Positions 48,777 to 63,668 of a DNA stretch of 64,000 nucleotides are shown here, piece after piece. The stretch comes from a virus (lineage: Duplodnaviria; Caudoviricetes). Both the position numbers and the translations under genes were made by a program. Position 1 is the first letter of the stretch, and every line of letters starts with the position of its first letter. The notes below the pieces were generated by a model. The model saw nothing but the letters and a program-made list of their open reading frames with translations, was not told the DNA's origin and did not search any database. The stretch is taken from IMG/VR virus record IMGVR_UViG_3300033076_000691, positions 39,768 to 103,767 of that record. One strand, 5' to 3'.

Positions 48777-48980
48777 CTACCCTATCATATATCCTAGTAG
48801 AAATGAAACTATTATTAGTGCACCAATTGTATAATTTGCTATAGCACGACCTTTCTCATCTTCCATATACATATTGTACATTCTGTTATAGACAGGTCTT
48901 GTCATAGCATTTATGACAATCCAAAACATTGCAATACATCCTACTGCAAATGCTGCTAATAATATTTTTAACCAGATCAT
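48777..48980 (-). CDS. Small two-TM membrane protein
   Basis: Two hydrophobic segments. Confidence 0.6.
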   Translation of the reverse strand: MIWLKILLAAFAVGCIAMFWIVINAMTRPVYNRMYNMYMEDEKGRAIANYTIGALIIVSFLLGYMIG

Positions 48981-49294
48981 AGTAAATCAATTCTTCTTTG
49001 TAAATATACTAAAGCCTTTTGTAAATCTTCTTTTTCTTTAGATTTATTTTTCTTTCCAGCTCTAGCAACATACTTAATTACATTACCAAGATAGAAATCT
49101 TTATCAATACCCCAGGCTTCTAGGACATTAAATACTTCATAAGTAGTACCAGCACCACCGTAATGATTTGGCCTAGTAGAATCATTGACAATAATAATTC
49201 TAGACGCAACATCCTTTGCCGGTGTACCCATCTCTTCTTTAGAGCACATGATCTTTTCATACTGCTCTTCTGATTCTTGACTAAAGTTTACCAT
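48977..49294 (-). CDS. DUF3310 family protein
   Basis: P.HY...F.LGNVIKYV.RAGKK...EDL.KA..YL. Confidence 0.8.
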   Translation of the reverse strand: MVNFSQESEEQYEKIMCSKEEMGTPAKDVASRIIIVNDSTRPNHYGGAGTTYEVFNVLEAWGIDKDFYLGNVIKYVARAGKKNKSKEKEDLQKALVYLQRRIDLL

Positions 49295-49930: not shown

Positions 49931-50178
49931 GCATTCTCAAAGGTTGCTATGAAAGCTTCCGGTGTATACACAACAAATTTACCAGTCACTGTCTTAACAA
50001 TAAAGTCATTAATACAAACTACCTCATTGCTCTCTAAAGGATCAATCATTAAATCCTTCACATGACCATGTAGTGTAAAATAACATGTGGTACAAAAGTC
50101 TGAAATCTCAGATCTGTTGTTACCGTTCCATTGAACAGCTTCAATCATAAGAGGTTTAGTTTTAAACAATTGTACCAT
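49927..50178 (-). CDS. KP..IEAVQW / D.I.K...G.F....P..F..T.E family phage protein (PGDYG-like)
   Basis: Recognisable but degenerate family motif; start reassigned to MVQLFK behind a TATATTTG box. Confidence 0.55.
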   Translation of the reverse strand: MVQLFKTKPLMIEAVQWNGNNRSEISDFCTTCYFTLHGHVKDLMIDPLESNEVVCINDFIVKTVTGKFVVYTPEAFIATFENA

Positions 50179-50206
50179 AACACAAATATAAAAAACTTTT
50201 TCAAAT

Positions 50207-50238
50207 AAAAAAGCCCAGGCTTTCAACTCCGGGCTTTT
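50207..50238 (-). terminator. Intrinsic terminator
   Basis: AAAAGCCC.GG...CC.GGGCTTTT hairpin. Confidence 0.55.
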
Positions 50239-50301
50239 GAAATCTCAATCAAAAAAAAGTATACAATGAGATTTACGACAAGACAAATATATAAAAATAT
50301 T

Positions 50302-50439
50302 TTATCTCCCTTGTGCTCTGTAAGATTTTTTATAATTCTTACTTTTCTTTAGTTTGCTGGTTTTTGTTTTAGCATGGATGCCTGGTCTGGAAACCTTTAC
50401 CTTAACCAATCTTGTTGCACTGTCTTTTACTTTTGCCAT
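50302..50439 (-). CDS. Small basic protein ending YRAQGR (45 aa), not in the ORF track
   Basis: MAKVKDSATRLVKVKVSRPGIHAKTKTSKLKKSKNYKKSYRAQGR; K.YRGQG-type terminus recurrent in phages. Confidence 0.7.
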   Translation of the reverse strand: MAKVKDSATRLVKVKVSRPGIHAKTKTSKLKKSKNYKKSYRAQGR

Positions 50440-50470
50440 GATTATTAGTTTATACTAATAATATACAAAT

Positions 50471-50668
50471 TTACTTTAAGACTCTACCGTATGTGATATT
50501 ATTTTTAGCTCTGATGTCCTTGTGTGTGTACTGCCAAAATTCACCAGTATCATTTATAATTACGGTATAGATAGTGTCGGTCTCATGACCATAGTCTGTG
50601 ACTAACCAAATTATCCCAGGACCTTTTGGTGTATCAACCTCTACTCTATTCTGTGGTTCAAAGATCAT
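50471..50668 (-). CDS. Hypothetical protein (TPKG.G..W...DYG.E family)
   Basis: ORF track; start reassigned to MIFEPQ. Confidence 0.65.
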   Translation of the reverse strand: MIFEPQNRVEVDTPKGPGIIWLVTDYGHETDTIYTVIINDTGEFWQYTHKDIRAKNNITYGRVLK

Positions 50669-51332
50669 AGTTCTCAATTTTAATTAGCTCATCTCTTTCA
50701 GCAAGCTTCTTATATAAGTCAATATCTGTTGACCATTCTTGTCCTGTCCAAAACTCAAAGCCTCTATAGTTTGATTTATATAAACAGCACTGCTCATATC
50801 CCCCTAAAAGATAAACATATTCACAACCTAGAAGTTTAGCAGTTTCACATTCTATCATCTGAGCTACTGTACCTAAAGATAACTTAGGATCTTCATAGTC
50901 CCAGATAAACTGATATGCCACAAACTGTGTATCAAACTGCTTATATATACTTATCCCAATAAGATGGTCTGTATAGTACTCTATAACAGAACAGTCTCTA
51001 AAGTTATCAAGGTTAATGTCCCGTTTAAACCCATGATATGCACAGTACTTTTCATGTAGTTCTATATACTGCTCTAATGCCGCATCAATATTGCCAGCTT
51101 CAACAACAATCTTCTTTGCTAACTTCTTAGTAGTCTTACTTGGTTGGTACTTGGACAAATCTATCCTAGTACTCCGTTCATTATACCATCTATCTTTCCA
51201 GGGAATCCAACCTTGCTTCAATGCATCTACAGAAGATTCATTAGGTTCAAGTATACCATAGGCACAATTAACTATTACCTCAAGATCACTGACCTTACCA
51301 AATCCTGCAATATGATCAAAGAAAACTTTCAT
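50658..51332 (-). CDS. Aminoacyl-tRNA-protein transferase, ATE1/Bpt-like
   Basis: L..GW, R.TRIDL..Y.PSK..KK, and C-terminal FIWDY..PKLSLG......E...AK.LG..YVYL.G.....C.YK..Y..FE.W....W matching the ATE_C pattern. Confidence 0.75.
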   Translation of the reverse strand: MKVFFDHIAGFGKVSDLEVIVNCAYGILEPNESSVDALKQGWIPWKDRWYNERSTRIDLSKYQPSKTTKKLAKKIVVEAGNIDAALEQYIELHEKYCAYHGFKRDINLDNFRDCSVIEYYTDHLIGISIYKQFDTQFVAYQFIWDYEDPKLSLGTVAQMIECETAKLLGCEYVYLLGGYEQCCLYKSNYRGFEFWTGQEWSTDIDLYKKLAERDELIKIENYDL

Positions 51333-51445
51333 ATAGTAAATATACAAAAAACCCAGGCAGTAATCCTTGATCAGAGGAACTTACCTGGGGTTGTCACCAG
51401 TTATATCTACCCTGGGTACCTTAGTAGAACTTCCCAATAACCAAA

Positions 51446-51889
51446 CTATTTTTTAAAGAAACTTTTCTTTGGTTGTTCTTTTCTATCAAGTCCTAACTTC
51501 TCAATAATCTTATTAGCTTGTTCTTCTGCAAAACTGATTACCTCTTCTTCCTTATCAATGATCTTCCAGTTATTAAGTAAGATACTCATATGCATTGTTT
51601 CATGCATAATAGCTGTAGCTTTTTCTGTAAGACTATATCTCTTAAATGTTCCGAGGTTAATAAATATAAAAGGCTTGTAAGGTTCTTTTGCAGTAAGTTT
51701 CTTATCTGCCGGGTCATAGTTAGTCCACCCATAAATATAAACTCCGTTACCCACAGTCTTATCTACTTCCTCAGCTTGAGCATCTTTACGACTCAACCCG
51801 TGCATCTCATCTACCTTATAGTAGTCAAATATTTCAGTAGCATTGTCTCCAAAGAGAACAATATACTTACCCATATCTATTTTCTTCAT
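51446..51889 (-). CDS. HExxH zincin-like protein
   Basis: IMHETMH motif with downstream EEE. Confidence 0.5.
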   Translation of the reverse strand: MKKIDMGKYIVLFGDNATEIFDYYKVDEMHGLSRKDAQAEEVDKTVGNGVYIYGWTNYDPADKKLTAKEPYKPFIFINLGTFKRYSLTEKATAIMHETMHMSILLNNWKIIDKEEEVISFAEEQANKIIEKLGLDRKEQPKKSFFKK

Positions 51890-52099
51890 ACTAACAATAT
51901 ACTAATTAATAAACTTACAAACTTATAAAAAGTAAATTATTTTAAACCTATAAGCTGATGGATAATCCCACCACAGACTGTACTATTATGGTATAATGTG
52001 TTATATAACGGACATTAACATACAGATATGTTCCTTTAAAGGGACTATATGTAAATGCATACAATATAGTCACCTCAGCCTAAACTATATGTAGGTGCA

Positions 52100-52335
52100 T
52101 ATAATCCCCGGGCCAATCTACCAAGTCTATGTACCCCCCAGTATGTCCAGTTTTTTGCACTAATAACTGGACACGGGGAGGGGTTTTTTAATATGTAAGA
52201 GGTTGTTGTTGACCCCCTGCAGCAGCCACCCCCGGTCTGTCTGAGCTGGGGGTACCCCCCATCTTCTGTGGTGGGGGTGTCTGGCACATGCCAGAAAAAA
52301 ACTTTTTTCCTCGACCAGAAAAAACTTTTCTCCTG
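52100..52335. other. GC-rich strand-switch region; candidate genome terminus/packaging or origin region
   Basis: Transcription diverges here; G/C runs, GGGGGTACCCCC palindrome, near-direct repeat CCAGAAAAAA(A)CTTTT. Confidence 0.4.
52144..52173. promoter_or_regulatory. Palindrome TGTCCAGT-N14-ACTGGACA, copy 1
   Basis: Same arms and spacing at 63591-63620. Confidence 0.55.
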
Positions 52336-52384
52336 TCATGACAGTGGCTAACCCATCAACTGCATACCAAATAAAATATTTGTT

Positions 52385-52627
52385 ATGAAAAATCAACTTC
52401 CAACTCTGTCAGCTCTCGTGAGCATCCATCCTTGCAAGTCTCATGACTTTCTATACGTTATAAAGAAAGTCAATACTGATCAGTGGCTTCCAAGAATCCC
52501 CAAATCAGTAGTAAAAGATTCCATCCAATCCAGTGGGTTGTATGAAATCATTTACAGGCTTTACAAGAATAAAGATGGATATGACTCCATCTTCATCAGT
52601 AAAGCCACAAAGGTTATGACCTCATAA
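52385..52627 (+). CDS. Early hypothetical protein
   Basis: Between a motif copy and a terminator. Confidence 0.6.
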   Translation: MKNQLPTLSALVSIHPCKSHDFLYVIKKVNTDQWLPRIPKSVVKDSIQSSGLYEIIYRLYKNKDGYDSIFISKATKVMTS

Positions 52628-52643
52628 GGTCATAATCTTTTTT
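52610..52643 (+). terminator. Intrinsic terminator
   Basis: AAGGTTATGACC-tcataa-GGTCATAATCTT followed by a T-run. Confidence 0.7.
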
Positions 52644-52679
52644 CTTTCCCTCTTAATTGCTAACCCTTAACTCAAGTTG

Positions 52680-52906
52680 AATTAATTCATAATGTAATCT
52701 TCAGTCCAAATGATACAGACTGAAGTCATAAAGAGGAGCTGTTGCAACAGTGTCTGAATATGAGTCGGGATAAATCAGACGTGATTTATCAGGTCATTGA
52801 AAGTGTAGGATTTCAAATAGATATAACTTATCATCATTAAGCCTGCAATTAATGATGACATAACAAATGAGGGAATATATCAGCAATGATATATTCTTTC
52901 ATTTTT
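52680..52906 (+). ncRNA. Candidate multi-hairpin small RNA
   Basis: At least five hairpins, no substantial ORF, bounded by a promoter motif and a terminator. Confidence 0.5.
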
Positions 52907-52969
52907 CCCTCTTTTGGCTAACCCTTAACTTATCTTGATAATTATTCATTAACTAAATCATTAAACATT

Positions 52970-53413
52970 ATGGCATTATCAGCAGTTTATGTAGGAAACT
53001 ACATCAGAAAAGAAGGTGAGCAAAAAGGTAAAACCTTCCATGTTTACACCATTAAAGGTTCAAAGGAAGAACTTAAACAGTATGTGAATACACCGCAGTT
53101 TAAGAAATATCCACGTAAATCTGCAACGGGAGAACCACAAATGCATACTATGTATATGGATGCATTTCGTGATGAGTTACCATTATATCTTAAACAAGAT
53201 GGTAACTTCACATTGGATCAGTCTGAAACAAGAAAGGATTTGAGCAGATTGGAAATGTTAGAACAAGTGTCACCTGCTATTGCATCTGCATTTGCAACTA
53301 AACTTGCAGATAAAGTATTTGGTGCAGGTAAAGTATCTAGCAGTACTGCAAATGCTTTCATGTCAGAACCTGTCAGTGAGGGGAATGATGCAGATTTCAG
53401 TGATGACATCTAA
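52970..53413 (+). CDS. Early protein with acidic C-terminal tail (possible SSB-like)
   Basis: Beta-rich N-terminus, C-terminal EGNDADFSDDI; own promoter and terminator. Confidence 0.55.
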   Translation: MALSAVYVGNYIRKEGEQKGKTFHVYTIKGSKEELKQYVNTPQFKKYPRKSATGEPQMHTMYMDAFRDELPLYLKQDGNFTLDQSETRKDLSRLEMLEQVSPAIASAFATKLADKVFGAGKVSSSTANAFMSEPVSEGNDADFSDDI

Positions 53414-53422
53414 ACATCATTA

Positions 53423-53460
53423 ATGAGTGAGTAGGACTTAGGTCCTACTCTTCATTTTTT
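53423..53460 (+). terminator. Intrinsic terminator
   Basis: GAGTAGGAC-ttag-GTCCTACTC followed by a T-run. Confidence 0.75.
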
Positions 53461-53534
53461 AGTATTTAGTAATCCCTCTTTTTGCTAACCCTTCACTTAT
53501 ATCAGGAAATAATGCTACAGCATTATTTTGTTTT

Positions 53535-53665
53535 CTTTAGTATATAGTATATATAGTATATAATACAGTATATATACTCAATACTCAATAACTATTACTA
53601 GTAAATAGTATGATACTATTATATATACTGTAGTATATATAGTATACTCAATAACATTCTACTAT
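53535..53665. repeat. AT-rich low-complexity TATA(T)AGTA / ATACTCAATA repeats
   Basis: Direct repeats and inverted pair TACAGTATATATA / TATATATACTGTA. Confidence 0.6.
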
Positions 53666-53823
53666 ACACAGAAACATTTTGGTATATGTTCAGCAGTGTA
53701 ACTGTCTGAGAATGTGACAGAAAAACTTCTACTCAAACTTTACTACTAAATACATCCACAGAATATACAGCAGATCTATGCTTATATATAATTAATATAG
53801 CTAATAACTTAAAACATGAACTT

Positions 53824-54108
53824 ATGACTGACATTAAACAGAGACTATTAGACAATCTAGTAATAGGTATTATTATTGGAGCATTATCATTCTATATACT
53901 ACAATATATACTTGTACATGTAGTTGGTATGTCATTAACAGAGTCAAAGACTCCGGCATCTTACAAAGACGTAGGTGGTAACATTGATATTGAATACTAT
54001 CTTGAGGTATCAGAAGATTCAATATGGGTTGAAGGTGTTCAATCCAAGAAAGTATATTCAGGTAAATACTCAGACCTTGACAGTATTATACTATTAGATA
54101 ACAAGTAA
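53824..54108 (+). CDS. Membrane-anchored hypothetical protein
   Basis: N-terminal TM segment. Confidence 0.65.
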   Translation: MTDIKQRLLDNLVIGIIIGALSFYILQYILVHVVGMSLTESKTPASYKDVGGNIDIEYYLEVSEDSIWVEGVQSKKVYSGKYSDLDSIILLDNK

Positions 54109-54130
54109 ACAATAACTTAAATATATACTT

Positions 54131-54346
54131 ATGAATTCTAATCTGATTACTTTAGACAATCCTACACTCGGGAGAATTGATAGAGACCTTATCAACTTTG
54201 CAAAGGCCTATTATGGTTCATCATTTGATGAGTCAAAACAAAAAGAAATCTGCTCAATGGATGTAGCAGATAAGATCTGGTTACTTACTCAATACAAAGA
54301 GGAACTAACTTCAGTATCTAAACCTAATCTTAGTGACTTGTATTAA
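54131..54346 (+). CDS. Hypothetical protein
   Basis: ORF track, AT-rich start context. Confidence 0.6.
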   Translation: MNSNLITLDNPTLGRIDRDLINFAKAYYGSSFDESKQKEICSMDVADKIWLLTQYKEELTSVSKPNLSDLY

Positions 54347-54531
54347 TGTATAACCTAATCTTTAGGTTATATATGTTGCTAGGAATAGTAAAACCACAAG
54401 ACAATGTGGATGGTAGAACTATATATACCATCCACACTAAGTCTACTCATATTGAATATGCTTATAAAGGTGAGGTCATCCAATGGATCCGATCTCATCA
54501 ATTTGAGTATAATGAAGATATAGTAGATTAA
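54346..54531 (+). CDS. Hypothetical protein
   Basis: TAATG coupling to the previous gene. Confidence 0.6.
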   Translation: MYNLIFRLYMLLGIVKPQDNVDGRTIYTIHTKSTHIEYAYKGEVIQWIRSHQFEYNEDIVD

Positions 54532-54533
54532 AT

Positions 54534-54672
54534 TACTCTCATCCAATTGCAGGATGTATATTCTAATGCGACATTGTGTTTGTTAGAATAACATTGGTTA
54601 TATAATACCAGAGGGCCTTATGATGGTCGTGTGCTGGCATATATATCAAGGGTTGCAACCTTGTGAGAGTAC
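54534..54672 (+). ncRNA. tRNA-like structured RNA with an expanded middle
   Basis: TACTCTCA/TGAGAGTA closing stem stacked on a CAAGG-GTTGCAA-CCTTG T-arm-like hairpin. Confidence 0.55.
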
Positions 54673-54820
54673 AAATAGATGTAACCAGACATCGGTATAG
54701 TAATCTACTAACTATACGAAATCCAAATAGTAGATAGAGTATGTTAGCTGCAGAGGAAGAAACACATGCTTGAACCAAATAATTGACTGCAAAGGTTTTA
54801 GATTTTGTACCTACAAATAA

Positions 54821-54943
54821 ACAAAATCATGTAATGCACCATTCCTGATTCCCAAGGTCAGGCAGTTGTAGGAACTAACCATGTAATACCCATGAGGTAT
54901 CAAACTTACAGGTACAACTGAGTGCAGAGGGGTTCTGATTTGT
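54821..54943 (+). ncRNA. Twister self-cleaving ribozyme (type P1, with P5 extension)
   Basis: TAA-TGCA...CCTGA-TTCCCAAGG-TCAGG...TGCA-GAGGG core; both pseudoknots can form. Confidence 0.75.
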
Positions 54944-54987
54944 AACTTATTAATTTTTTATTTATACACTTAATTTTTATTCTGATT

Positions 54988-55899
54988 ATGAGAAATTTAG
55001 CAACCAAAGGATTGTCAATGAGTCAAGCACAATCTATTAGTAACCTATGCAATCAAAATGCACAGGAAATTGCACGTGAGATAGAATCTTACAACAACTG
55101 TAGTAAGTCAATTACTATTGGTACTCAAACATATACTTTACAAGAAGGTATACCTGTTCCAGGTGATATCATTGAGAAACTTAAGAACAAGGGTGATTTA
55201 CATGCTTGTCAAGCATTCTTGATGGAAGCTATCAGAGGTAAAGATGCTGAGATATCAAGACTCCGATCTATGAGAGTTGATACTTCACATCTTGTGGCAC
55301 CTGAAAGACCAGTTGTACCTGATTATGACATCAAAGATAATGTTGATGAAGATTGGGGATGGGAACAGTTAACAGATGCTGAGTATTCTGAGTATCTACA
55401 AGCTGAAGCAATGGCATCTCATCTTGGTCAGTTCATTCATAAGAATGGTAAACTTACTGATTTGAGAAAAGAATTACCTAAAGTTCCTCAAATTGAATGG
55501 TTTGAGGTAAAAGAAGGTGAGAAAACACCAGTTAAAGTAACTAAGCACCATATTTCTGGAGTATTACTCACATTACATGAGGAAATTGCAGAACAACATA
55601 GAACTTATGAGCAACGTGTAAACTATTTCAAAGCTAAGGTTAAGAACTTAGTTAGTGATGAGAATGCACGTATTCAGAAGGAAAATGCAGATAAAGCAGC
55701 TGAATTCTTAAACCTTGAGAAAAAACTCATGGAAGAATACAGAGTTGCATTAGATGCATACAATGGTGAGATACTTAGACTTACTATGGAGTTTAATAGT
55801 CAACGTGAGGAGGTTATTAAATTTCATGCAGGATTAAGAATTGATGTTGATCCTAGATTTCAGCATGTAATAGATATGTTTATTACAAAAGAGAATTAA
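54988..55899 (+). CDS. Coiled-coil protein (303 aa) flanked by structured RNAs
   Basis: GLSMSQAQSISNLCNQ, AFLMEAI and EA.ASHLGQFIH..G motifs; long helical C-terminal half. Confidence 0.8.
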   Translation: MRNLATKGLSMSQAQSISNLCNQNAQEIAREIESYNNCSKSITIGTQTYTLQEGIPVPGDIIEKLKNKGDLHACQAFLMEAIRGKDAEISRLRSMRVDTSHLVAPERPVVPDYDIKDNVDEDWGWEQLTDAEYSEYLQAEAMASHLGQFIHKNGKLTDLRKELPKVPQIEWFEVKEGEKTPVKVTKHHISGVLLTLHEEIAEQHRTYEQRVNYFKAKVKNLVSDENARIQKENADKAAEFLNLEKKLMEEYRVALDAYNGEILRLTMEFNSQREEVIKFHAGLRIDVDPRFQHVIDMFITKEN

Positions 55900-55953
55900 T
55901 AACATTAGGTGAGTAAGAGATAGGCACAAGCTGATTCTCTTACTCTTTATACT

Positions 55954-56211
55954 TGGTAACAGGAATTTTTCAACAACTATAGCATGGGTTAAGAACCCTT
56001 ATAAAAAGTAATTTATAAACTACATTTGAAAAACTACCGCTTCTCTCCAACTTTTACTGAGATAGAACTCATTAGTCAGACAGGTTAAGTACCTAGAGGT
56101 GTACAATTGGCTGACAAAAGATGAGACTTTATCTTTGTTTTTGCCTTTGTGGGAGAGAAGGTCTTTGAATTTGTATTTGTATTTAGCTTTAGCTATATAT
56201 TCCTGTTACCA
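55954..56211 (+). ncRNA. Candidate ~260-nt rod-shaped RNA
   Basis: Nested stems: 13 bp perfect, 9 bp perfect, plus two imperfect inner stems. Confidence 0.6.
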
Positions 56212-56234
56212 TGTAACTATATCACATTTATGGT

Positions 56235-56564
56235 ATGAAACAGTTGAATTTTAATAAGGAAGGTAATCAATGGTATATTGATTTACCTGATTGGAAAGGT
56301 GCTAAAGAAGAACTTGAAATGGTTGCTGGTGCAGACAGACTACTAGATCATTTGTCTAACAATGAAGACAAAGTATCTGTATTTGTATCTGAAGAACCAA
56401 TAGATGATTCTATTGCACTAAACAAGAAGTATAATATTAATGGTGGTGCTGATTATAAGCCTGCTAATACTGATGTTGTATTTAGTGTTTGGTTGTGTGG
56501 TGTCACTAAGTTTGTATTTGGTGGTTACATGCCGGATAAGTTGTACTTAAAAACTGCACAATGA
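56235..56564 (+). CDS. DUF6717-like protein
   Basis: WYIDLP.W.G....LEMV.GAD.LLD...WLC.VT.FVFG...P. Confidence 0.6.
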   Translation: MKQLNFNKEGNQWYIDLPDWKGAKEELEMVAGADRLLDHLSNNEDKVSVFVSEEPIDDSIALNKKYNINGGADYKPANTDVVFSVWLCGVTKFVFGGYMPDKLYLKTAQ

Positions 56565-56654
56565 AAGAGATCTTACTTTGCCTATTAGTTATGGCATTAT
56601 TGTACTCACAGTATTTATTAATTAACAAAAAATAGTTATCTTAATTAAAAAGAT

Positions 56655-56978
56655 ATGTCACTAGAAATAACAAAAGAAAACTTTAGTCAAGAAGTACTCA
56701 ACTCAAAAACACCTGTATTAGTAGATTTTCATGCAGCTTGGTGTGGTCCTTGTAAAATGTTAGGTCCAGTAATTGATTCTTTATCTGAAGAATATAAAGA
56801 TAAAGCAACAATTGGCAAGTTGGATGTTGATACCAATAGAGATATTGCAGTTGACTATAGTGTAAGAGCTATTCCATTAGTTCTTATATTCAAAGATGGA
56901 AAAGTTGTAGAAAGAATTACAGGCAGTAATCCTAAAGATGTATACATTACAGCTTTAAATGCTGCACTACAAGATTAA
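56655..56978 (+). CDS. trxA: Thioredoxin
   Basis: VLVDF.A.WCGPCK, V.AIP and FKDG motifs. Confidence 0.95.
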   Translation: MSLEITKENFSQEVLNSKTPVLVDFHAAWCGPCKMLGPVIDSLSEEYKDKATIGKLDVDTNRDIAVDYSVRAIPLVLIFKDGKVVERITGSNPKDVYITALNAALQD

Positions 56979-56999
56979 TTAACAGAGTTTTGAACTTAT

Positions 57000-57025
57000 A
57001 AGGGGGCTTATTGTCCCCTTTTTTA
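57000..57025 (+). terminator. Intrinsic terminator
   Basis: AAGGGGGC-ttatt-GTCCCCTT followed by a T-run. Confidence 0.7.
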
Positions 57026-57035
57026 TTTATTGGTT

Positions 57036-57284
57036 ATGAAAAGAATTCAAGAGTTAGAAGAATTAAGAGATATGTACATCCAAGATCTTGAAGATTTAGC
57101 AATGTTTGAAGCAAATCCTGAGATGTATGAGTTACGTAAGCATGAATTAGAATTTAGAATTATGTCTATTGAAGATACAATTGAGTATTTACAAGAAGGA
57201 CAAAATTCTAGGAGAAAGTTTGGAGTTATACTAACTGGTGTAGTTCTAATTATTGTATGTAGTATTATTTATTTAATTTCGTAA
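57036..57284 (+). CDS. Coiled-coil protein with C-terminal TM segment
   Basis: ORF track; start reassigned to MKRIQEL. Confidence 0.6.
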   Translation: MKRIQELEELRDMYIQDLEDLAMFEANPEMYELRKHELEFRIMSIEDTIEYLQEGQNSRRKFGVILTGVVLIIVCSIIYLIS

Positions 57285-57286
57285 AG

Positions 57287-57646
57287 ATGTCTGAAAAGAG
57301 AAAAGTTGGGAGACCAAAGAAAACATCTACAGTAGTAGCAAAAGATAAGAAAATCAATATGAATTGGAAAGCAGCTTATCTTAATCTTGTTGAAGAAAAC
57401 AAGAAAAGAGATATGATGTTTGAATCATTCAAAGAAAATGCAGGTTCTGTTATTGGTGAGATGGCTGATAATCAATTGAATGTTATCAATGTGGTATTAA
57501 ATTCAATTGATTCTATTGAATCTCATTGTAACAATGTACTTGAACAAACTAATACTCTTGAAATTACAGATGTAGCCTATATGGTTAATCTTGCCAAGAG
57601 AAGATTATTAGCAACGTATTCCCATATGGAGAATACTGAAGAGTAA
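57287..57646 (+). CDS. Hypothetical protein with AT-hook-like KRKVGRPKK
   Basis: N-terminal GRP motif in a basic context. Confidence 0.6.
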   Translation: MSEKRKVGRPKKTSTVVAKDKKINMNWKAAYLNLVEENKKRDMMFESFKENAGSVIGEMADNQLNVINVVLNSIDSIESHCNNVLEQTNTLEITDVAYMVNLAKRRLLATYSHMENTEE

Positions 57647-57654
57647 AATCTTCT

Positions 57655-57728
57655 GGTTCCATAGCTCAATTGGATAGAGCAACACACTTCTAATGTGTAG
57701 GTTTCTGGTTCGAGTCCAGATGGGATCA
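57655..57728 (+). tRNA. tRNA-Arg (anticodon TCT), no encoded CCA
   Basis: Acceptor GGTTCCA/TGGGATC, D arm GCTC..GAGC, anticodon arm ACACA-CTTCTAA-TGTGT, T arm TCTGG-TTCGAGT-CCAGA. Confidence 0.92.
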
Positions 57729-57788
57729 CTAAAGCCTCTAAGTTTAAAGGCTTTTTTATTACTTATTTATTTATTTAAAGATCTGATT

Positions 57789-58106
57789 ATGAAAGTGTTA
57801 GGAAAACTATTTAACAGAAAAAAGAAATTAGTTAACTCTCCAGAGTTAAAGATTTGTATAATTGATGATACAACAACAGATTTGTGGACCACATTTGGTA
57901 TCACAGAAGAAAGAAGAGATGAGATCATTGATATATGTAAAGAAAGTTTAATGCAATTTGATATTAAATCTAAGTCTTATGAATACATTGTTGACAAGTG
58001 TAAACATGTCAATGAAGTTGTCACAGCTACAATTATCTTTGAAAGAATGTGTGATCAACAAAATGATCATCCACTTGCAGGTTTAATGAAACTGTTTGGA
58101 AAATGA
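57789..58106 (+). CDS. Hypothetical protein
   Basis: Start reassigned to MKVLGK to avoid the tRNA. Confidence 0.65.
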   Translation: MKVLGKLFNRKKKLVNSPELKICIIDDTTTDLWTTFGITEERRDEIIDICKESLMQFDIKSKSYEYIVDKCKHVNEVVTATIIFERMCDQQNDHPLAGLMKLFGK

Positions 58107-58315
58107 AAGTCTTTACATCAGTACTAGGGTTTAACTTTAATGTTACCGTAGTAGACAATGAAGGTAATCCACTTAAAACAGGTGCAAGAGTAGTTACTGC
58201 GGTAACTAAAGGAACTCCCAATGTGGGAACAAAGATTGGCGGTCAGAGTTGGTTTACCAACTATAATGAGCAATTGTTGAACAAGATTAGAGATTATAGG
58301 AGGAGAAATGACTAA
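58103..58315 (+). CDS. Hypothetical protein
   Basis: ATGA overlap with the previous gene. Confidence 0.6.
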   Translation: MKVFTSVLGFNFNVTVVDNEGNPLKTGARVVTAVTKGTPNVGTKIGGQSWFTNYNEQLLNKIRDYRRRND

Positions 58316-58736
58316 GATTCAATTAGAATTAAATGAAACTGACTTATATAATGCTCTAAAGGGTATCATAGATCATAATAATGCTGATGAAATAACTAAA
58401 TTCTTAGTCCATTGTATTGGTGCCTCACATGATACAGCAAATATATTCTTTAAGACTTATCTTGGGGCACCAGCACCTAGAGTATTGCTTCCAGGTGAAA
58501 TGATAAAAGTACTTCCCAAGAGTATTACATGGAAGACTCAAGAAGAAGAAATGAGGAAACATGATTTGATTGATAAATCAGGTTATTGTACAGCAGTTAT
58601 TAAAGAATTCAGAGGTTTTCATGATTCTAGTACTTATTATGTTTCATTTGCTAATGTAAATGATGAAGATGAAGTATATCAGGATACCGGATGGGTTAGT
58701 TATAAAGATGTTATAGAAGTTATAGAAGAGTTTTAA
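58308..58736 (+). CDS. Hypothetical protein
   Basis: ORF track. Confidence 0.65.
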   Translation: MTKIQLELNETDLYNALKGIIDHNNADEITKFLVHCIGASHDTANIFFKTYLGAPAPRVLLPGEMIKVLPKSITWKTQEEEMRKHDLIDKSGYCTAVIKEFRGFHDSSTYYVSFANVNDEDEVYQDTGWVSYKDVIEVIEEF

Positions 58737-58778
58737 GATAGTATATCTGTTGATATGCTTTTCCTAACCAAAGAATAT

Positions 58779-58800
58779 CAGGGGGTTACGGCCCCCTTTA
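58779..58800 (+). terminator. Intrinsic terminator
   Basis: AGGGGG-ttacgg-CCCCCT followed by TT. Confidence 0.6.
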
Positions 58801-58892
58801 TTCTTGTTTAGCTATATATTCCCATTTATTATCAGTTGATGTTATTATATTTACTATAATTACTATATATTTATCTGCATATTTATGTAGAT

Positions 58893-59165
58893 ATGTTATA
58901 TCAACTCCCTAATGGGAAAGTCGTTCATCTTTCAGTAGAAGAATTTCTTGATCTTACAGATGAGGATATACAATATCTCATGTCCATTGATTATGGAGAA
59001 TATATCAAAAATCCTTTCAGCGGTTCTGCTGTAGATGACAATGTCAAAGAAAAGTATTATGACTTTGATTTCCTCAAAGTGGATGATGAAGATATAAATG
59101 ATATTATATCTGATGACATTCCTTTTGATGATATTATTGATTTATCGGATGACATGAATATGTAG
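58893..59165 (+). CDS. Highly acidic small protein
   Basis: YQLPNGKV..LS.EEFLDLTD.DIQ.L; Asp-rich C-terminus. Confidence 0.7.
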   Translation: MLYQLPNGKVVHLSVEEFLDLTDEDIQYLMSIDYGEYIKNPFSGSAVDDNVKEKYYDFDFLKVDDEDINDIISDDIPFDDIIDLSDDMNM

Positions 59166-59252
59166 TTTTTAACTACACATTTACCTTAGCTTGAGTAACT
59201 AAGGTGTATTATCTACTCAACAATCTATTTATTATTTATTAAAAGTTTAATT

Positions 59253-59735
59253 ATGAATTCAAAAGTAATTGTATTAGCTGATGAAACAACTAAAGCTGTT
59301 GTTAATGTTTCACAAAATCGACCAGATTATGGTTATATCCGTGTGCAACAAGTTAGAACTATGATTGATGACAATGGTTTCTTACGTAGAAAACCTGTCA
59401 CAGCTTTAATTCCTGGTACAATAGAGGAATTAGAAGCATCTGGTTTCTTTGCAGGTCAAGCTTTAGAAGGTAAAATTGTGATTGAAGAATCTCTTGAACC
59501 ATTCAACCAAAAAGAACCAGAACGTGATCTTAAAGTTGCTGGTGAAACTGGTATTGTATGTACATTTGGTGGATTACCTATCTACCGCAGAACTAAAATG
59601 AGTTTTGATGCAACTTCTGCAGATACATTAATCAAACATGACAATGTAGAACAGTTACGTGCTGCATACAATGGTCAAACTAAATCAAGTGCTATCCGTC
59701 CAGGAATCAGTGAAGATTTCTCAATTGGAGGATAA
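59253..59735 (+). CDS. Conserved phage protein (possible SSB/OB-fold)
   Basis: Beta-rich, codon-biased, followed by its own terminator. Confidence 0.55.
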   Translation: MNSKVIVLADETTKAVVNVSQNRPDYGYIRVQQVRTMIDDNGFLRRKPVTALIPGTIEELEASGFFAGQALEGKIVIEESLEPFNQKEPERDLKVAGETGIVCTFGGLPIYRRTKMSFDATSADTLIKHDNVEQLRAAYNGQTKSSAIRPGISEDFSIGG

Positions 59736-59756
59736 TATATTTTATTGGAATAATCA

Positions 59757-59786
59757 AAAGGGGGAGTTTATAGCTCCCCCTTTTTA
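59757..59786 (+). terminator. Intrinsic terminator
   Basis: AAGGGGGAG-tttatag-CTCCCCCTT followed by a T-run. Confidence 0.75.
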
Positions 59787-59803
59787 TTTATGAATTTTAT
59801 TGT

Positions 59804-60289
59804 ATGATTATGGAAAAGCTTAAAGAACAGGTAAGAAATTACCAATTGAGATCACATACTGTGATGTCATATGAACAAGATAGATATTCAGTCTATCAAA
59901 ATTATCTTTATAAGAGAGCATTGTATGGTTTAGATGCTCTTGATGAGAAGGAATTAGCTACTTTATGTAGTAAAAAGAAACAAAGAATAATTAATGTTTA
60001 TAAGCGTGCTCAAACTGTTTTGAACTCATTTAAACAGAAACTTACTATTGAATATACCAATAAATTGTTTAAGAATTTCTTTCCTAAGTCTAACATTACC
60101 AAGGAGTTACTAGAATCCAATGATGTAGACGAAAAGTTCAAGAATACTTTAACTTTTAAAGATTTAAATATCTCTAAAGATGATATTATTCGTATATTTA
60201 TAGCTGAAGGTATACTTCCTAAAAACTTTTTAAGTTTAAAAGAAGCACCTGTAAGTTTACCAAATTTGAAGAATGCAGATAAAGCTTAA
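59804..60289 (+). CDS. Hypothetical protein
   Basis: ORF track. Confidence 0.7.
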   Translation: MIMEKLKEQVRNYQLRSHTVMSYEQDRYSVYQNYLYKRALYGLDALDEKELATLCSKKKQRIINVYKRAQTVLNSFKQKLTIEYTNKLFKNFFPKSNITKELLESNDVDEKFKNTLTFKDLNISKDDIIRIFIAEGILPKNFLSLKEAPVSLPNLKNADKA

Positions 60290-60680
60290 AGAATGTGATG
60301 GTTGTGGCAAACCATCACAAATATGGAAGAACCATGAGGGGTTCAGATACTGTAAACTTTGCTGGAGTTGCCACAAAAGTAAAGAGATTTCACAGAAACC
60401 AACCAAACGTCCTGTAATCCCTCAGGTCTCTTCCAAGAGGAGACAGAAAGATGCTGAGTATCTTAAGTTAAGAGAAAGGTTTCTTACTCAGAATCCAATA
60501 TGTCAAATCTCTGTGGCCGGTTGTATGAATGGTGCAACTGATGTTCATCATACATATGCCGGTTCCAACAGAGATGCATTCTATTTGGTTCAGAGTACAT
60601 GGAAAGCAACATGTAGAAATTGTCATGATTGGGTACATGCCCATCCTTCAGAAGCAAGAACATTAGGATATTTAAAATAA
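60273..60680 (+). CDS. Zn-finger + HNH-like nuclease
   Basis: CxxC..CxxC N-terminus; C....C...ATDVHH......CRNCH.WVH. Confidence 0.65.
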   Translation: MQIKLKECDGCGKPSQIWKNHEGFRYCKLCWSCHKSKEISQKPTKRPVIPQVSSKRRQKDAEYLKLRERFLTQNPICQISVAGCMNGATDVHHTYAGSNRDAFYLVQSTWKATCRNCHDWVHAHPSEARTLGYLK

Positions 60681-60684
60681 TTAT

Positions 60685-61776
60685 ATGGATAGACAAGACA
60701 TCCAATTAGAAGCGTTAGCTGCAACTGACAGTAAACAGAGGTGTTCTGTTGTATTAGGCACAGGGGTTGGTAAAACCCTTGTTGGACTAAACTATATCAA
60801 TAGGAATACTACACCTCTAATGAAAGTGTTAGTTGTTGCACCTAAGAAAGCAATATTTCAATCATGGAAAGATGATGCAGAGAAATTTGATATGCATCAT
60901 TTATTAGGTAGAATTGTATTTACTACTTACTTGAGCCTGAATAAACATAATCCACAAGATTATAATGCTGTCTGTTTGGATGAATGTCATTCATTACTAG
61001 ATAGTCATAGAGGATTTTTACAACTATATAAAGGAAAGATACTAGGTTTAACTGGTACTCCTCCTAAGTATGGTAGTTCAGAGAAAGGTAGATTAGTACA
61101 AGAATTCTGTCCTGTAGTGTATACATTTAAAGCAGATGATGCTATTGAAAATGGTATACTAAATGATTATCAAATCATAGTACATCAGATTCAACTAGAT
61201 AAATGTAAAGGCTATGTTGCACAAATGAAAGAAAGATCATTTGTTACATCAGAGTATGACAACTATGTTTATTGGTCTAGAAGAATCGATGTAGGGTCTG
61301 GAAACATGCACATGCTCAGAGTTATGAGAATGAAGGCTATGATGGAGTATCAAAGTAAAGAAAAATATACCAAGAAATTAATGGAAAGTATTAATACTAA
61401 GTGTATTGTCTTTGCTAATACTCAAGCACAAGCAGATAAGTTATGTGAATATAGTTATCATAGTGGTAATAAAGATTCCGAAGAAAATCTTTTGATGTTT
61501 AAATCAGGAGAAATAACTAAACTTTCTACTGTATTGCAGTTAAATGAGGGTATTAATATACCTAATCTTAAACAAGGTATCATTATGCATGCATATGGTA
61601 ATGAGAGAAAAGCTAGTCAAAGAATTGGTAGATTACTTCGTCTTAATCCAGATGATAAAGCAATAGTACATATACTATGTTATATGGATACTATTGATGA
61701 GAAATGGGTAAGAGAAGCACTAGAGTCTTTTGACCAAACTAAAATTATTTGGAAAGATTTTGGAGTAAAATTGTAA
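60685..61776 (+). CDS. Superfamily 2 (DExH) helicase
   Basis: GTGVGKT, DECH, GLTGTP, LNEGINIP and QRIGRLLR. Confidence 0.9.
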   Translation: MDRQDIQLEALAATDSKQRCSVVLGTGVGKTLVGLNYINRNTTPLMKVLVVAPKKAIFQSWKDDAEKFDMHHLLGRIVFTTYLSLNKHNPQDYNAVCLDECHSLLDSHRGFLQLYKGKILGLTGTPPKYGSSEKGRLVQEFCPVVYTFKADDAIENGILNDYQIIVHQIQLDKCKGYVAQMKERSFVTSEYDNYVYWSRRIDVGSGNMHMLRVMRMKAMMEYQSKEKYTKKLMESINTKCIVFANTQAQADKLCEYSYHSGNKDSEENLLMFKSGEITKLSTVLQLNEGINIPNLKQGIIMHAYGNERKASQRIGRLLRLNPDDKAIVHILCYMDTIDEKWVREALESFDQTKIIWKDFGVKL

Positions 61777-61785
61777 ATTAGCAAA

Positions 61786-62040
61786 ATGGAATTACCTGAA
61801 GATCATAAACTTATATTGTATAATGATGATGTGCACAGTTTTGCTTATGTTGTAGCTTGTCTCATAAAGTTCTGTGGTCATGAACCTCAACAAGCAGAAC
61901 AATGTGCACTTGTAGCTGATTTAGCTGGTCAGTGTACTATTAAACATGGTTGTTGGGCTCAGATATCTACAATGAAAGAATTACTTGAAGGAGTAGATCT
62001 AAAAGTTAAAATGGAAGAACATGAAGATGGTTTGCATTGA
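61786..62040 (+). CDS. clpS: ClpS N-degron adaptor (variant)
   Basis: LILYNDDVHSF.YV...L...C.H...QAEQC.L.....G.C.IK.G, Bacteroidota-type ClpS pattern. Confidence 0.85.
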   Translation: MELPEDHKLILYNDDVHSFAYVVACLIKFCGHEPQQAEQCALVADLAGQCTIKHGCWAQISTMKELLEGVDLKVKMEEHEDGLH

Positions 62041-62296
62041 TAGCAGTAATAAACCTGCTAAAGTCCCTATAGAACAGTGGATTAAAGAAGGTGAAACATA
62101 TACTGTAATTAAAGTAGTAAAAATGGGATTGCAAGACAAAAAGTATGGTGTGCTTCTCAAAGAAGTACAAATGTCTGCTGATTGTTTTCCATATGAGTAC
62201 TATGATGCAGACCGGTTCATTCCATTAGATATGAGAGTCTATGAAGCAGAAGAAAAGAAAGAAGAAGTCTTAGAAGCTGACTTAGAACTAATCTAA
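62021..62296 (+). CDS. Hypothetical protein (VCID...G..YTV...Y.A.RF family)
   Basis: ORF track. Confidence 0.65.
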   Translation: MKMVCIDSSNKPAKVPIEQWIKEGETYTVIKVVKMGLQDKKYGVLLKEVQMSADCFPYEYYDADRFIPLDMRVYEAEEKKEEVLEADLELI

Positions 62297-62301
62297 ATGT
62301 T

Positions 62302-62754
62302 ATGGAGTATACAGAACAAGATGTAATTGACAAACTTAAAGAATTGTATAAAGGTCCTAGAACTAGAGTAAGGCATTTAACAGATATGAGATACTATCTA
62401 ATTTCTGTATTGTATTATAAATTTAAGTTGAAAGAAGAACAAATCTTTGCATATACAACTCTTACAAATAGATCAAGTGTTCATCATGCTAAAAGATTAG
62501 GTTATGAACTCTATAAATCAGAGGATCCGGTTTTTATGAGAAACATTGAAGGACTTATTAAACAGTTTCCTTATGATTTTCCTGAAGGCTCAGTTAATGT
62601 CAAATTAAAACCAGGATTACAAACAATAAAATTTAGAGTATCTCCTGCAATAATGGAGCAATTAAAAAGATATAGTAACCGTAAATCTTTTGAATCAGTA
62701 GATATTGGTGCAAAACATATATTAACTAATCTGTTAAAGTTATGGGAAGAATGA
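62302..62754 (+). CDS. Putative DNA-binding protein: DnaA-C-like HTH + RHH-like C-terminus
   Basis: R.R....R.Y....L...NRSSVHH; IKFRVSP....QL..Y. Confidence 0.45.
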   Translation: MEYTEQDVIDKLKELYKGPRTRVRHLTDMRYYLISVLYYKFKLKEEQIFAYTTLTNRSSVHHAKRLGYELYKSEDPVFMRNIEGLIKQFPYDFPEGSVNVKLKPGLQTIKFRVSPAIMEQLKRYSNRKSFESVDIGAKHILTNLLKLWEE

Positions 62755-63005
62755 AAGAGATTTACATGCGTATCATGTATGAAAATGATGGTCAAGTACC
62801 AGAAGAAATGACTCTTGCTGACATGGCTAGAATGAAAGAAATAGAAATTTATAACTGGGAAGAATATGAAAGAGAACAAGAGAAAATCAGATTATTCAGA
62901 GTTAAACAAGAGAATCCAAGAGAGATTACTAAGGTTGCACAAGTCAGAGAGTACTGGGAAGAAGAACTCCGCAAAGGTAAGATCAGAAGACTTAAAAAAG
63001 ATTAA
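62742..63005 (+). CDS. Hypothetical protein (MGRMKE family)
   Basis: ORF track. Confidence 0.6.
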   Translation: MGRMKEIYMRIMYENDGQVPEEMTLADMARMKEIEIYNWEEYEREQEKIRLFRVKQENPREITKVAQVREYWEEELRKGKIRRLKKD

Positions 63006-63007
63006 TA

Positions 63008-63214
63008 ATGAAGAAGGTGACTAGTAATACTTTGAACAAGATGGTCATATTTTCTATTGGTATGATTATAGGTATGTTTGTAATTGGTTTAACTAAATCT
63101 ACTTATGTAGTAGAAAAACCAATTTATACTTATGTAAAAACATCAGATTGGTCTAAAGAAACTAATCCCAGGAAAGTTGCTTATTTTGAGCACCTTGTAA
63201 GAACACAACCATGA
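63008..63214 (+). CDS. Small membrane protein
   Basis: One TM segment. Confidence 0.55.
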   Translation: MKKVTSNTLNKMVIFSIGMIIGMFVIGLTKSTYVVEKPIYTYVKTSDWSKETNPRKVAYFEHLVRTQP

Positions 63215-63405
63215 AGCATTTTATTAAATACACATTGGTATGGATAAGCCAAAACTTGTCCATACCATTTTGGATGGTAGGTCATGTGCATCTAATGACA
63301 TCAGTCTATGCAGATATACATGAAATTATCATGTCCTTGGGTATGAATATAATTGTGGCAGTGGGGTTTATTATTGATTATAAAGATTCAAGAAATGAAA
63401 GATAG
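63211..63405 (+). CDS. Small membrane protein
   Basis: Hydrophobic; ATGA overlap. Confidence 0.6.
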   Translation: MKHFIKYTLVWISQNLSIPFWMVGHVHLMTSVYADIHEIIMSLGMNIIVAVGFIIDYKDSRNER

Positions 63406-63589
63406 AAACTGGGTAGTAATTCTACCAATATTATTTTATGTATTAGCCGGGTTTGGTTATATCAGATGTGCATATAAGATGTTTACATGTAACTGGGAAC
63501 CTATTGGTAAAGCAGAAGTAGTTTATACTATAGGTACATTTTCAGGTGCCGGAGTAGTTATTGGTTACTTTGACATTGAGGACAAGTAA
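63395..63589 (+). CDS. Small membrane protein
   Basis: Start reassigned to MKDRNW. Confidence 0.6.
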   Translation: MKDRNWVVILPILFYVLAGFGYIRCAYKMFTCNWEPIGKAEVVYTIGTFSGAGVVIGYFDIEDK

Positions 63590-63590
63590 A

Positions 63591-63620: not shown

Positions 63621-63668
63621 AATCTATAAAGAATAGGTCCTAATATTTACCACATATAATTAATAGAA

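What the first reader, a model, noticed from the sequence alone, without database searches (positions are those of the whole stretch)
50658..62040. Candidate phage-encoded N-degron pathway: ATE/Bpt-like transferase + ClpS + tRNA-Arg
Seen: an ATE_C-pattern protein (50658..51332), a ClpS (61786..62040) and the window's only canonical tRNA, Arg(UCU) (57655..57728). Established: Bpt adds Leu and ATE1 adds Arg from aminoacyl-tRNA to N-terminal Asp/Glu; ClpS reads N-degrons and delivers substrates to Clp proteases. Inference: the phage carries both writer and reader, and possibly the donor tRNA, to redirect host Clp proteolysis to chosen host proteins such as defence factors, or to clear its own processed proteins. 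The HExxH gene directly upstream of the transferase could create neo-N-termini. Caveat: the genes are not clustered, so functional linkage is unproven, and I cannot verify novelty without a literature search.
Basis: partly seen in the sequence, partly recalled or inferred. Interest (0 to 1): 0.85.

Follow-up and report, generated by a model that had tools for sequence, protein, structure and literature searches.

The report
Phage mini-transferase and tail-less ClpS
This uncultured crAss-like phage really does encode a stripped-down ATE/Bpt-type tRNA-dependent transferase, a ClpS lacking its delivery tail and a tRNA-Arg. Across related phages the transferase and ClpS come and go separately, each with its own small partner gene, so they look like two accessory modules rather than one mark-and-destroy pathway.

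Summary
All three features are real. The 224-aa protein (50658-51332, minus) passes Pfam ATE_C, and its model aligns full-length only to ATE1. The 84-aa protein (61786-62040) passes Pfam ClpS. tRNA-Arg(UCU) is the window's only tRNA.

The pathway reading is weak.
- The transferase belongs to a family found almost only on viral or metagenome contigs. It has no ATE_N hit and no metal-binding cysteines.
- A hydrophobic residue replaces the arginine ATE1 needs to read Asp/Glu N-termini. The catalytic Lys/Tyr are kept.
- Its constant partner is an overlapping 65-aa gene: 78 of 78 loci and 10 of 10 genomes. The HExxH gene and ClpS are not constant partners.
- ClpS is a Bacteroidota-type copy with 3 residues where E. 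coli has a 24-residue N-terminal extension. It has Asp at the His66 position, as in UBR1/2, and travels with its own overlapping 91-aa gene.
- Near-complete relatives show transferase+ClpS, transferase only and ClpS only.
- AGA is 83% of the phage's Arg codons, and relatives that carry the transferase often lack the tRNA.

Best reading: two independent two-gene modules plus a codon-usage tRNA.

This scan reached the same conclusion earlier on other genomes.

The parts
50658..51332 (-). Mini ATE/Bpt-like aminoacyl-tRNA transferase, 224 aa
   Evidence: Pfam ATE_C 33.9 bits. AF2 model has pLDDT 95.6. Residues 1-216 align full-length to ATE1 only, Z 14-15.4. K186 and Y185 match the catalytic K304 and Y303.
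50471..50668 (-). g65: 65-aa all-beta partner gene whose start overlaps the transferase stop by 11 nt
   Evidence: Present in 78 of 78 transferase loci with room, and directly downstream in 76. Tracks the transferase in 10 of 10 long records. No Pfam or PDB match. The model is low-confidence, pLDDT 60.6.
51446..51889 (-). 147-aa HExxH protein; a frequent but not obligatory neighbour
   Evidence: H96/E97/H100 are invariant. Found within 2 kb in 41 of 80 loci. Present in transferase-less G015-G017 and absent from G001, G006 and G021. No Pfam or PDB match; Peptidase_M78 is only a weak atlas lead.
51346..51389 (-). Hairpin (CCCAGG...CCTGGG) plus T-run between the HExxH stop and the transferase start
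   Evidence: Read by eye. The terminator scan did not call it because the loop exceeds 8 nt.
61786..62040 (+). ClpS-family protein, 84 aa, core only with no N-terminal extension
   Evidence: Pfam ClpS 53.6 bits. Residues 4-50 align to E. coli ClpS 25-71. 33% identical to a Chitinophagaceae ClpS. The open frame is only 87 codons.
62021..62296 (+). g91: 91-aa gene overlapping the ClpS 3' end by 20 nt
   Evidence: Tracks ClpS in 10 of 10 long records. The order helicase-ClpS-g91 is conserved. No Pfam match.
60685..61776 (+). 363-aa helicase directly upstream of ClpS
   Evidence: PHROG DNA helicase, E = 2.6e-43. Same gene order in G001, G005, G009 and G020:C153.
57655..57729 (+). tRNA-Arg(UCU)
   Evidence: ARAGORN and Rfam at 67.3 bits. 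AGA is 956 of 1158 Arg codons in the phage.

Best explanation
The interval holds three unrelated accessory features of a freshwater-type crAss-like phage, probably infecting Bacteroidota.

A. Transferase module. This is a two-gene, translationally coupled cassette: a cysteine-free mini-ATE transferase plus a 65-aa beta protein. The enzyme keeps the ATE1 catalytic Lys/Tyr and the two-lobed ATE fold, so it most likely still moves an amino acid from an aminoacyl-tRNA onto an amine. It has lost the Arg that reads acidic N-termini, so its acceptor is probably not Asp/Glu N-termini. The small partner most likely supplies or is the acceptor-recognition element; this step is inferred.

B. ClpS module. 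This is a second two-gene cassette: a ClpS core of Bacteroidota ancestry, lacking the extension that the host unfoldase pulls on, plus an overlapping 91-aa gene. It most likely docks on the N-domain of the host ClpA/ClpC-type unfoldase and/or caps N-termini. I judge blocking or re-programming host N-degron proteolysis more likely than canonical delivery (inferred, about 0.5 against 0.3).

C. tRNA. The tRNA-Arg(UCU) serves translation of an AGA-rich genome.

Where both cassettes are present they could cooperate, but nothing requires it.
For: Transferase identity:
- Pfam ATE_C is above threshold.
- The family profile hits ATE1 structures at E = 1e-8.
- The model (pLDDT 95.6) aligns over residues 1-216 only with ATE1, Z 14-15.4 with 210 residues aligned. 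FemX and MprF align only the roughly 146-residue core.
- K186 is invariant in 50 of 50 members. Y185 and W144 are conserved.

Transferase divergence:
- 0 of 50 members hit ATE_N.
- hhalign against canonical Bpt gives 98% probability. It aligns G41-W42-I43-P44 with the Bpt motif G-F-R-R and shows an 8-residue deletion that removes the CxxC.
- klAte1 R80 is the first R of GFRRSG (PMC9351520). Position 43 is never R or K.

Partner genes:
- g65 is present in 78 of 78 loci and tracks the transferase in 10 of 10 genomes. It stays linked even where the transferase is only 44% identical.
- g91 tracks ClpS in 10 of 10 genomes.

Independent distribution of the two modules.

ClpS:
- Only 3 residues precede the core, where E. 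coli has 24.
- It shares a CxHExxQAEQC motif with a Chitinophagaceae ClpS.
- N13 and D14 are invariant, and position 45 is Asp as in UBR1/2.
- The extension is needed for hand-over in E. coli (PMC9663308).

tRNA.
Against: - No biochemistry exists for any of these proteins.
- Seven of 11 near-complete transferase-bearing genomes do carry ClpS, so cooperation is not excluded.
- The donor pocket keeps a Glu (E161, 42 of 50 members) at the position where ATE1 needs an acidic residue for Arg. That would fit an Arg-tagging role. However, canonical Bpts also show Q, E or T there.
- Two invariant arginines (R53, R56) could still form a basic acceptor pocket. I could not inspect coordinates.
- The role of the N-terminal extension is established only for E. 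coli ClpS-ClpA, not for Bacteroidota.
- Host assignment rests on TerL similarity, ClpS ancestry and a phage contig binned in a Chitinophagaceae MAG. All three are indirect.
Confidence: 0.6

Rival explanations
1. One reading: one phage N-degron pathway. The transferase tags chosen proteins, possibly after HExxH cleavage, using Arg-tRNA that may include the phage's own. The phage ClpS then reads the tag and feeds the proteins to the host Clp protease.
For: - Both genes lie in one genome and in 7 of 11 near-complete transferase-bearing relatives.
- The catalytic residues are intact.
- Glu161 sits at the ATE1 Arg-pocket position.
- The ClpS pocket residues N13, D14 and D15 are present in the window copy.
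- The Chitinophagaceae MAG has two Hsp100 unfoldases.
Against: - Transferase-only and ClpS-only complete genomes exist.
- The genes are 10.4 kb apart on opposite strands.
- The acidic-N-terminus Arg is missing.
- ClpS has no N-terminal extension.
- D15 and position 45 vary within the ClpS family.
- An N-terminal Arg is not a primary bacterial degron, and no Aat was found in the (incomplete) MAG.
- HExxH and the tRNA do not track the transferase.
Confidence: 0.15
2. The mini-ATE does not tag proteins for degradation at all. It aminoacylates a non-protein acceptor or a single dedicated acceptor, such as g65 itself, a cell-envelope precursor or a small molecule, in the manner of FemX or MprF.
For: - The acidic-N-terminus recognition residue and the zinc finger are lost.
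- The GNAT core matches FemX (Z 16.2) and MprF (Z 15.4) as well as it matches ATE1.
- Five of 50 family members also hit the FemAB-like Acetyltransf_6 family.
- There is an obligate, highly conserved 65-aa partner with an invariant Glu4.
Against: - Only ATE1 aligns over both lobes.
- No envelope or biosynthetic genes are adjacent.
- g65 is folded and conserved, unlike a typical modified peptide precursor.
Confidence: 0.2
3. Both genes are decaying or neutral host-derived passengers with no role in infection.
For: Both are dispensable in some complete relatives. Both score far below the NCBIfam equivalog cut-offs.
Against: - Conservation is strong. Fifty-nine columns are invariant in 27 transferase homologues.
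- ClpS is 75-95% identical across more than 120 clusters, and most are exactly 84 aa.
- More than 550 viral-contig copies of the transferase were found.
- The transferase is only about 20% identical to the host-type protein.
Confidence: 0.03

Closest known systems
Eukaryotic arginyl-tRNA-protein transferase ATE1 (structures 7WFX/7WG1, 7TIF, 8E3S, 8TZV)
   Same: - Two-lobed fold aligned over residues 1-216.
- Catalytic Tyr-Lys (Y185/K186), the tRNA-side Trp (W144) and a Glu at the Arg-pocket position E277.
   Different: - Less than half the size.
- No Cys4 zinc or Fe-S motif.
- The R80 equivalent is Ile or Leu.
- Pocket positions S255, S273 and Y289 are A, A and V in the window's subgroup.
- Always paired with a 65-aa protein.
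- Found almost only on viral or metagenome contigs.
Bacterial Bpt (Asp/Glu leucyltransferase; Pfam ATE_N + ATE_C; NCBIfam PRK01305)
   Same: Similar length (235-250 aa) and domain order. hhalign gives 98% probability over residues 31-215. The small pocket residues Ala/Ala are Bpt-like.
   Different: - No ATE_N hit.
- The GFRRSG and CxxC motifs are replaced or deleted.
- NCBIfam scores about 30 bits against cut-offs of 170-358.
- Only about 20% identical to the ATE_C protein of the putative host lineage.
Bacterial ClpS (E. coli 1MBU/3O2B) and the Bacteroidota-type ClpS
   Same: ClpS core fold family with the N-D-D motif. It is 33% identical to a Chitinophagaceae ClpS and shares its CxHExxQAEQC motif.
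   Different: - Three residues where E. coli has a 24-residue extension.
- Asp at the His66 position.
- Two extra invariant cysteines.
- Co-inherited with an overlapping 91-aa gene.
ClpS-homology (type-2) domain of UBR1/UBR2 (9WBW, 9WBV)
   Same: Asp at the His66 position and an N-D-[DE]-x-H-S-[FY] motif. The profile hit is at E = 1.4e-4.
   Different: The UBR domain is embedded in a 200-kDa E3 ligase. The phage protein stands alone, and its ancestry is bacterial.

Membership tests
ATE/Bpt aminoacyl-tRNA-protein transferases | ATE_C (GNAT-type catalytic) domain | tested here: met
   Pfam PF04377 scores 33.9 bits against a cut-off of 25. 40 of 50 family members hit it.
ATE/Bpt aminoacyl-tRNA-protein transferases | ATE_N domain with its Cys-rich metal site | tested here: not met
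   0 of 50 members hit PF04376. hhalign shows an 8-residue deletion over the CxxC. Members have 0-3 Cys in their first 80 residues, with no motif.
ATE/Bpt aminoacyl-tRNA-protein transferases | Two-lobed ATE fold | tested here: met
   The AF2 model (pLDDT 95.6) aligns residues 1-216 to ATE1 residues 10-333. Z is 14-15.4, rmsd 4.1-4.3 A, with 210 residues aligned.
ATE/Bpt aminoacyl-tRNA-protein transferases | Catalytic Lys (klAte1 K304) with adjacent Tyr | tested here: met
   K186 is present in 50 of 50 members and Y185 in 41 of 50.
ATE/Bpt aminoacyl-tRNA-protein transferases | Basic residue that reads N-terminal Asp/Glu (klAte1 R80, first R of GFRRSG) | tested here: not met
   The equivalent is I43. 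Across 50 members it is L, I, A, C, T, M or Q and never R or K. The alignment is profile-based, not coordinate-based.
ATE/Bpt aminoacyl-tRNA-protein transferases | Donor amino-acid pocket (Arg-type S/S/E/Y versus Leu-type A/A/Q/L) | tested here: inconclusive
   The window has A139/A157/E161/V173. The wider family is mostly S/S/E/L. Canonical Bpts show Q, E or T at the Glu position.
ATE/Bpt aminoacyl-tRNA-protein transferases | Transfer of an amino acid from aminoacyl-tRNA to a protein N-terminus | not testable with these tools
   This needs an in vitro assay.
ClpS adaptor | ClpS core domain | tested here: met
   Pfam PF02617 scores 53.6 bits against a cut-off of 23. The family profile hits E. 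coli, Plasmodium and Caulobacter ClpS structures.
ClpS adaptor | N-degron pocket residues (E. coli N34, D35, D36, H66; numbering from my own knowledge) | tested here: inconclusive
   N13 and D14 are invariant. D15 is present in the window copy but is D, E, S or A across the family. The H66 equivalent is Asp, and His only in G005. UBR1 and UBR2 also have Asp there.
ClpS adaptor | Flexible N-terminal extension engaged by the unfoldase pore | tested here: not met
   Phage residue 4 aligns with E. coli residue 25. Phage residue 7 aligns with host-type residue 21. The open frame is only 87 codons.
ClpS adaptor | Binding to the ClpA/ClpC N-domain | not tested
Self-contained phage N-degron pathway (writer + reader + donor) | Co-inheritance of writer and reader | tested here: not met
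   All three combinations occur in genomes at least 90% complete. Both genes: G001, G005, G058, G060. Transferase only: G003, G004, G062, G065. ClpS only: G015, G021.
Self-contained phage N-degron pathway (writer + reader + donor) | tRNA-Arg linked to the transferase | tested here: not met
   G001, G002 and G004 have no tRNA. G003 has tRNA-Arg(TCT). AGA is 82.6% of Arg codons.

The most novel reading that the evidence does not exclude
The phage carries two undescribed proteostasis modules. One is a mini-ATE with an SH3-like partner that, unlike Bpt or ATE1, tags non-acidic N-termini, possibly with Arg. The other is a tail-less, UBR-like ClpS with its own partner that reads or shields such ends. 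Where both are present, they would form a phage-specific degron code acting on the host Clp machinery.
Probability: 0.15. Interest if true: 0.8.

Novelty: new variant of a known kind. Interest (0 to 1): 0.55.

Why it matters
Aminoacyl-tRNA-protein transferases and ClpS are the writer and reader of bacterial N-degron pathways. I found no paper describing virus-encoded versions in the library searched.

The transferase family is abundant. It has more than 550 viral-contig copies and 190 clusters at 50% identity. It keeps the chemistry but has dropped the metal site and the acidic-end reader, and it needs a tiny partner. That makes it a compact model for how acceptor specificity is built in this enzyme class, and a possible new way for phages to modify host or phage proteins.

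A natural ClpS without its extension is a ready-made test of the pull-to-deliver model outside E. coli. It may also be a phage inhibitor of host proteolysis.

Tried and rejected
- GenBank phages: megablast of the region and tblastn of the transferase found nothing. ClpS hit only three huge uncultured phages.
- PHROGs gave nothing for the transferase or the HExxH protein.
I therefore have no binding test, no expression data, and no neighbourhoods for transferase relatives below about 55% identity, apart from L028/L029 (44%) and a few MAG contigs.
- g65: the profile found no PDB relative. The AF2 model is poor (pLDDT 60.6). Its structural hits are generic SH3/Tudor/KOW barrels at Z below 5, and I do not interpret them. 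No transferase-g65 fusion was found among longer proteins.
- HExxH: there is no PDB match. Peptidase_M78 is only an atlas lead at 0.89.
- The composite Bacteroidota promoter pattern TTTG-N17-21-TAnnTTTG is not enriched: 1 match against 3.2 expected. The sigma-70 scan is at chance level.
- Using Glu161 to call the donor Arg: rejected as decisive, because canonical Bpts also carry Glu at that position.
- The TerL-based clade census yielded mostly short fragments. The co-occurrence table therefore rests on about 20 long records, not on a phylogeny-corrected test.

Full report
**Observation.** The window is bases 39768-103767 of a 103,767-bp IMG/VR virus record that CheckV rates 86% complete. GC content is about 33%. 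The portal, large terminase and major capsid proteins match PHROG families. The terminase is 24-25% identical to those of crAss-like phages of Bacteroides and Flavobacterium. The genome also has the giant minus-strand genes typical of that group.

All the reported features exist at the stated coordinates:
- a 224-aa minus-strand ORF at 50658-51332, with Pfam ATE_C at 33.9 bits against a cut-off of 25;
- an 84-aa plus-strand ORF at 61786-62040, with Pfam ClpS at 53.6 bits against a cut-off of 23;
- a single tRNA, Arg(UCU), at 57655-57729;
- a 147-aa HExxH ORF at 51446-51889.

**The transferase.** It has 188 close metagenomic homologues, nearly all 224 aa. It has 190 clusters at 50% identity among 1.84 billion representatives and more than 550 copies on IMG/VR contigs. 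In 185,579 species genomes a single family motif, confirmed by tblastn, found only 7 loci. The best of these is a 117,852-bp phage contig binned into a Chitinophagaceae MAG. The family is therefore found almost only on viral or metagenome contigs.

None of 50 diverse members hits ATE_N. NCBIfam Bpt models score about 30 bits against cut-offs of 170-358. Even so, the AF2 model (pLDDT 95.6) aligns over residues 1-216 with ATE1 structures only: Z 14-15.4, 210 residues aligned. FemX, MprF and other GNATs align just the core of about 146 residues.

I mapped the residues that Kim et al. tested in K. lactis Ate1 (PMC9351520) through the HMMER alignments and an hhalign against five canonical Bpts (98% probability):
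- Catalytic Y303/K304 correspond to Y185/K186. K186 is invariant in 50 of 50 members.
- W260 corresponds to W144.
- The Cys4 site is removed by an 8-residue deletion.
- R80 is the first R of GFRRSG. Its positive charge is essential for Asp/Glu substrates. It corresponds to I43, which is never basic in 50 members.
- The donor pocket (S255/S273/E277/Y289) is A/A/E/V here and mostly S/S/E/L across the family.

The conserved Glu hints at a basic donor. However, canonical Bpts also carry Q, E or T at that position, so I leave the donor open.

**Its real partner.** The transferase stop overlaps the start of a 65-aa ORF, g65 (50471-50668), in the sequence ATGATCTTTGA. A g65 homologue is present in 78 of 78 transferase loci that have room for it. 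It lies directly downstream in 76. In the two copies of a 187-kb phage it lies adjacent but divergent.

g65 tracks the transferase in 10 of 10 long records. It is better conserved than the enzyme: 74% identity where the enzyme is 44% identical. It has no Pfam or PDB relative, and its model is a low-confidence small beta barrel.

The HExxH gene is within 2 kb in only 41 of 80 loci. It can sit on either side of the cassette. It occurs in transferase-less genomes, is missing from G001, G006 and G021, and is 59 kb away in G003. In the window a hairpin with a T-run separates it from the transferase.

**ClpS.** The family profile aligns residues 4-50 with E. coli ClpS residues 25-71. The open frame is only 87 codons. 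The protein therefore has 3 residues where E. coli has the 24-residue extension. ClpA must engage that extension to take over the substrate, and blocking its entry inhibits delivery (PMC9663308).

Most of the more than 120 homologous clusters are also exactly 84 aa. The protein is 33% identical (E = 1e-16) to the 95-aa ClpS of the Chitinophagaceae MAG and shares its CxHExxQAEQC motif. That host-type protein has about 14 more N-terminal residues and a His at the His66 position.

In the phage family, N13 and D14 are invariant. D15 varies between D, E, S and A. The His66 equivalent is Asp, and His only in G005. The ClpS-like domains of human UBR1 and UBR2 also have Asp there and score as well as E. 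coli ClpS. The substitution is therefore compatible with N-terminus binding.

ClpS always sits between a helicase and an overlapping 91-aa gene, g91. g91 tracks ClpS in 10 of 10 long records.

**Are the two modules linked?** They lie 10.4 kb apart in divergent transcription arms. Among long records:
- Both modules: G000, G001, G002, G005, G058, G059, G060.
- Transferase and g65 only: G003 (100% complete), G004 (90%), G062 (100%), G065 (100%), G006.
- ClpS and g91 only: G015 (99%), G021 (100%; terminase 88% identical to the window's), G016, G017.

These come, with positive controls included. The three huge GenBank phages that have ClpS gave no transferase match.

The putative host lineage already has its own ClpS, an ATE_C protein (about 20% identical, with a hydrophobic pocket) and two Hsp100 unfoldases. 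No Aat was found in that incomplete MAG.

**tRNA.** AGA accounts for 956 of the phage's 1158 Arg codons. Of five transferase-bearing relatives, only G003 has a tRNA-Arg(UCU). G001, G002 and G004 have no tRNA at all. Codon supply is the sufficient explanation.

**Conclusion.** The unified writer-reader-donor pathway is not supported as a conserved unit. The most economical reading is two independent two-gene accessory cassettes plus a translational tRNA.

What the transferase modifies, and whether the tail-less ClpS blocks or redirects host Clp proteolysis, remain inferred.

I found no description of either module in the paper library. Earlier notes of this scan on other genomes reached the same reading. 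I re-derived each point here before relying on it.

Noticed in passing
window 50302-50439 (-): A 45-aa, very basic ORF lies right after g65. It is conserved in L003, L017 and L004/L007 at 65-100% identity. A hairpin with a T-run follows at about 50245-50205.
   Followed up: partly
window 61786-62040: The phage ClpS family has invariant C25, C30, H32, C40 and C50. C30, H32 and C40 are shared with the Chitinophagaceae ClpS and absent from E. coli ClpS. This may be a metal or disulfide site.
   Followed up: no
window 40001-44000: GC content is 45.8% inside the 2809-aa minus-strand ORF (37795-46224), against 31-35% elsewhere.
   Followed up: no
window 54534-54943: A permissive Rfam scan of 50000-64000 (E up to 0.1) returned only the tRNA-Arg. 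It found nothing where sibling notes propose a tRNA mimic and a twister ribozyme.
   Followed up: partly
L087 (G005:2258-2367) and L088 (G003:66806-66921): Rfam tRNA hits of 110 and 116 nt that ARAGORN does not call. They may be interrupted or expanded tRNAs in related phages.
   Followed up: no
P0395-P0398, P0402: Longer g65-domain proteins carry a C-terminal CxxC...H knuckle. In P0402 there is instead a 215-aa N-terminal extension with Cys pairs. None is fused to the transferase.
   Followed up: partly
window 51900-52385: The divergent intergenic region between the two gene arms is unusually G/C-rich. It has runs such as GGGGGGTACCCCC and repeated 'aaaagtttttttctgg' units.
   Followed up: no
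window 48977-49294 (-): A 105-aa DUF3310 protein (Pfam 50.2 bits) lies among the small genes downstream of the transferase cassette.
   Followed up: no
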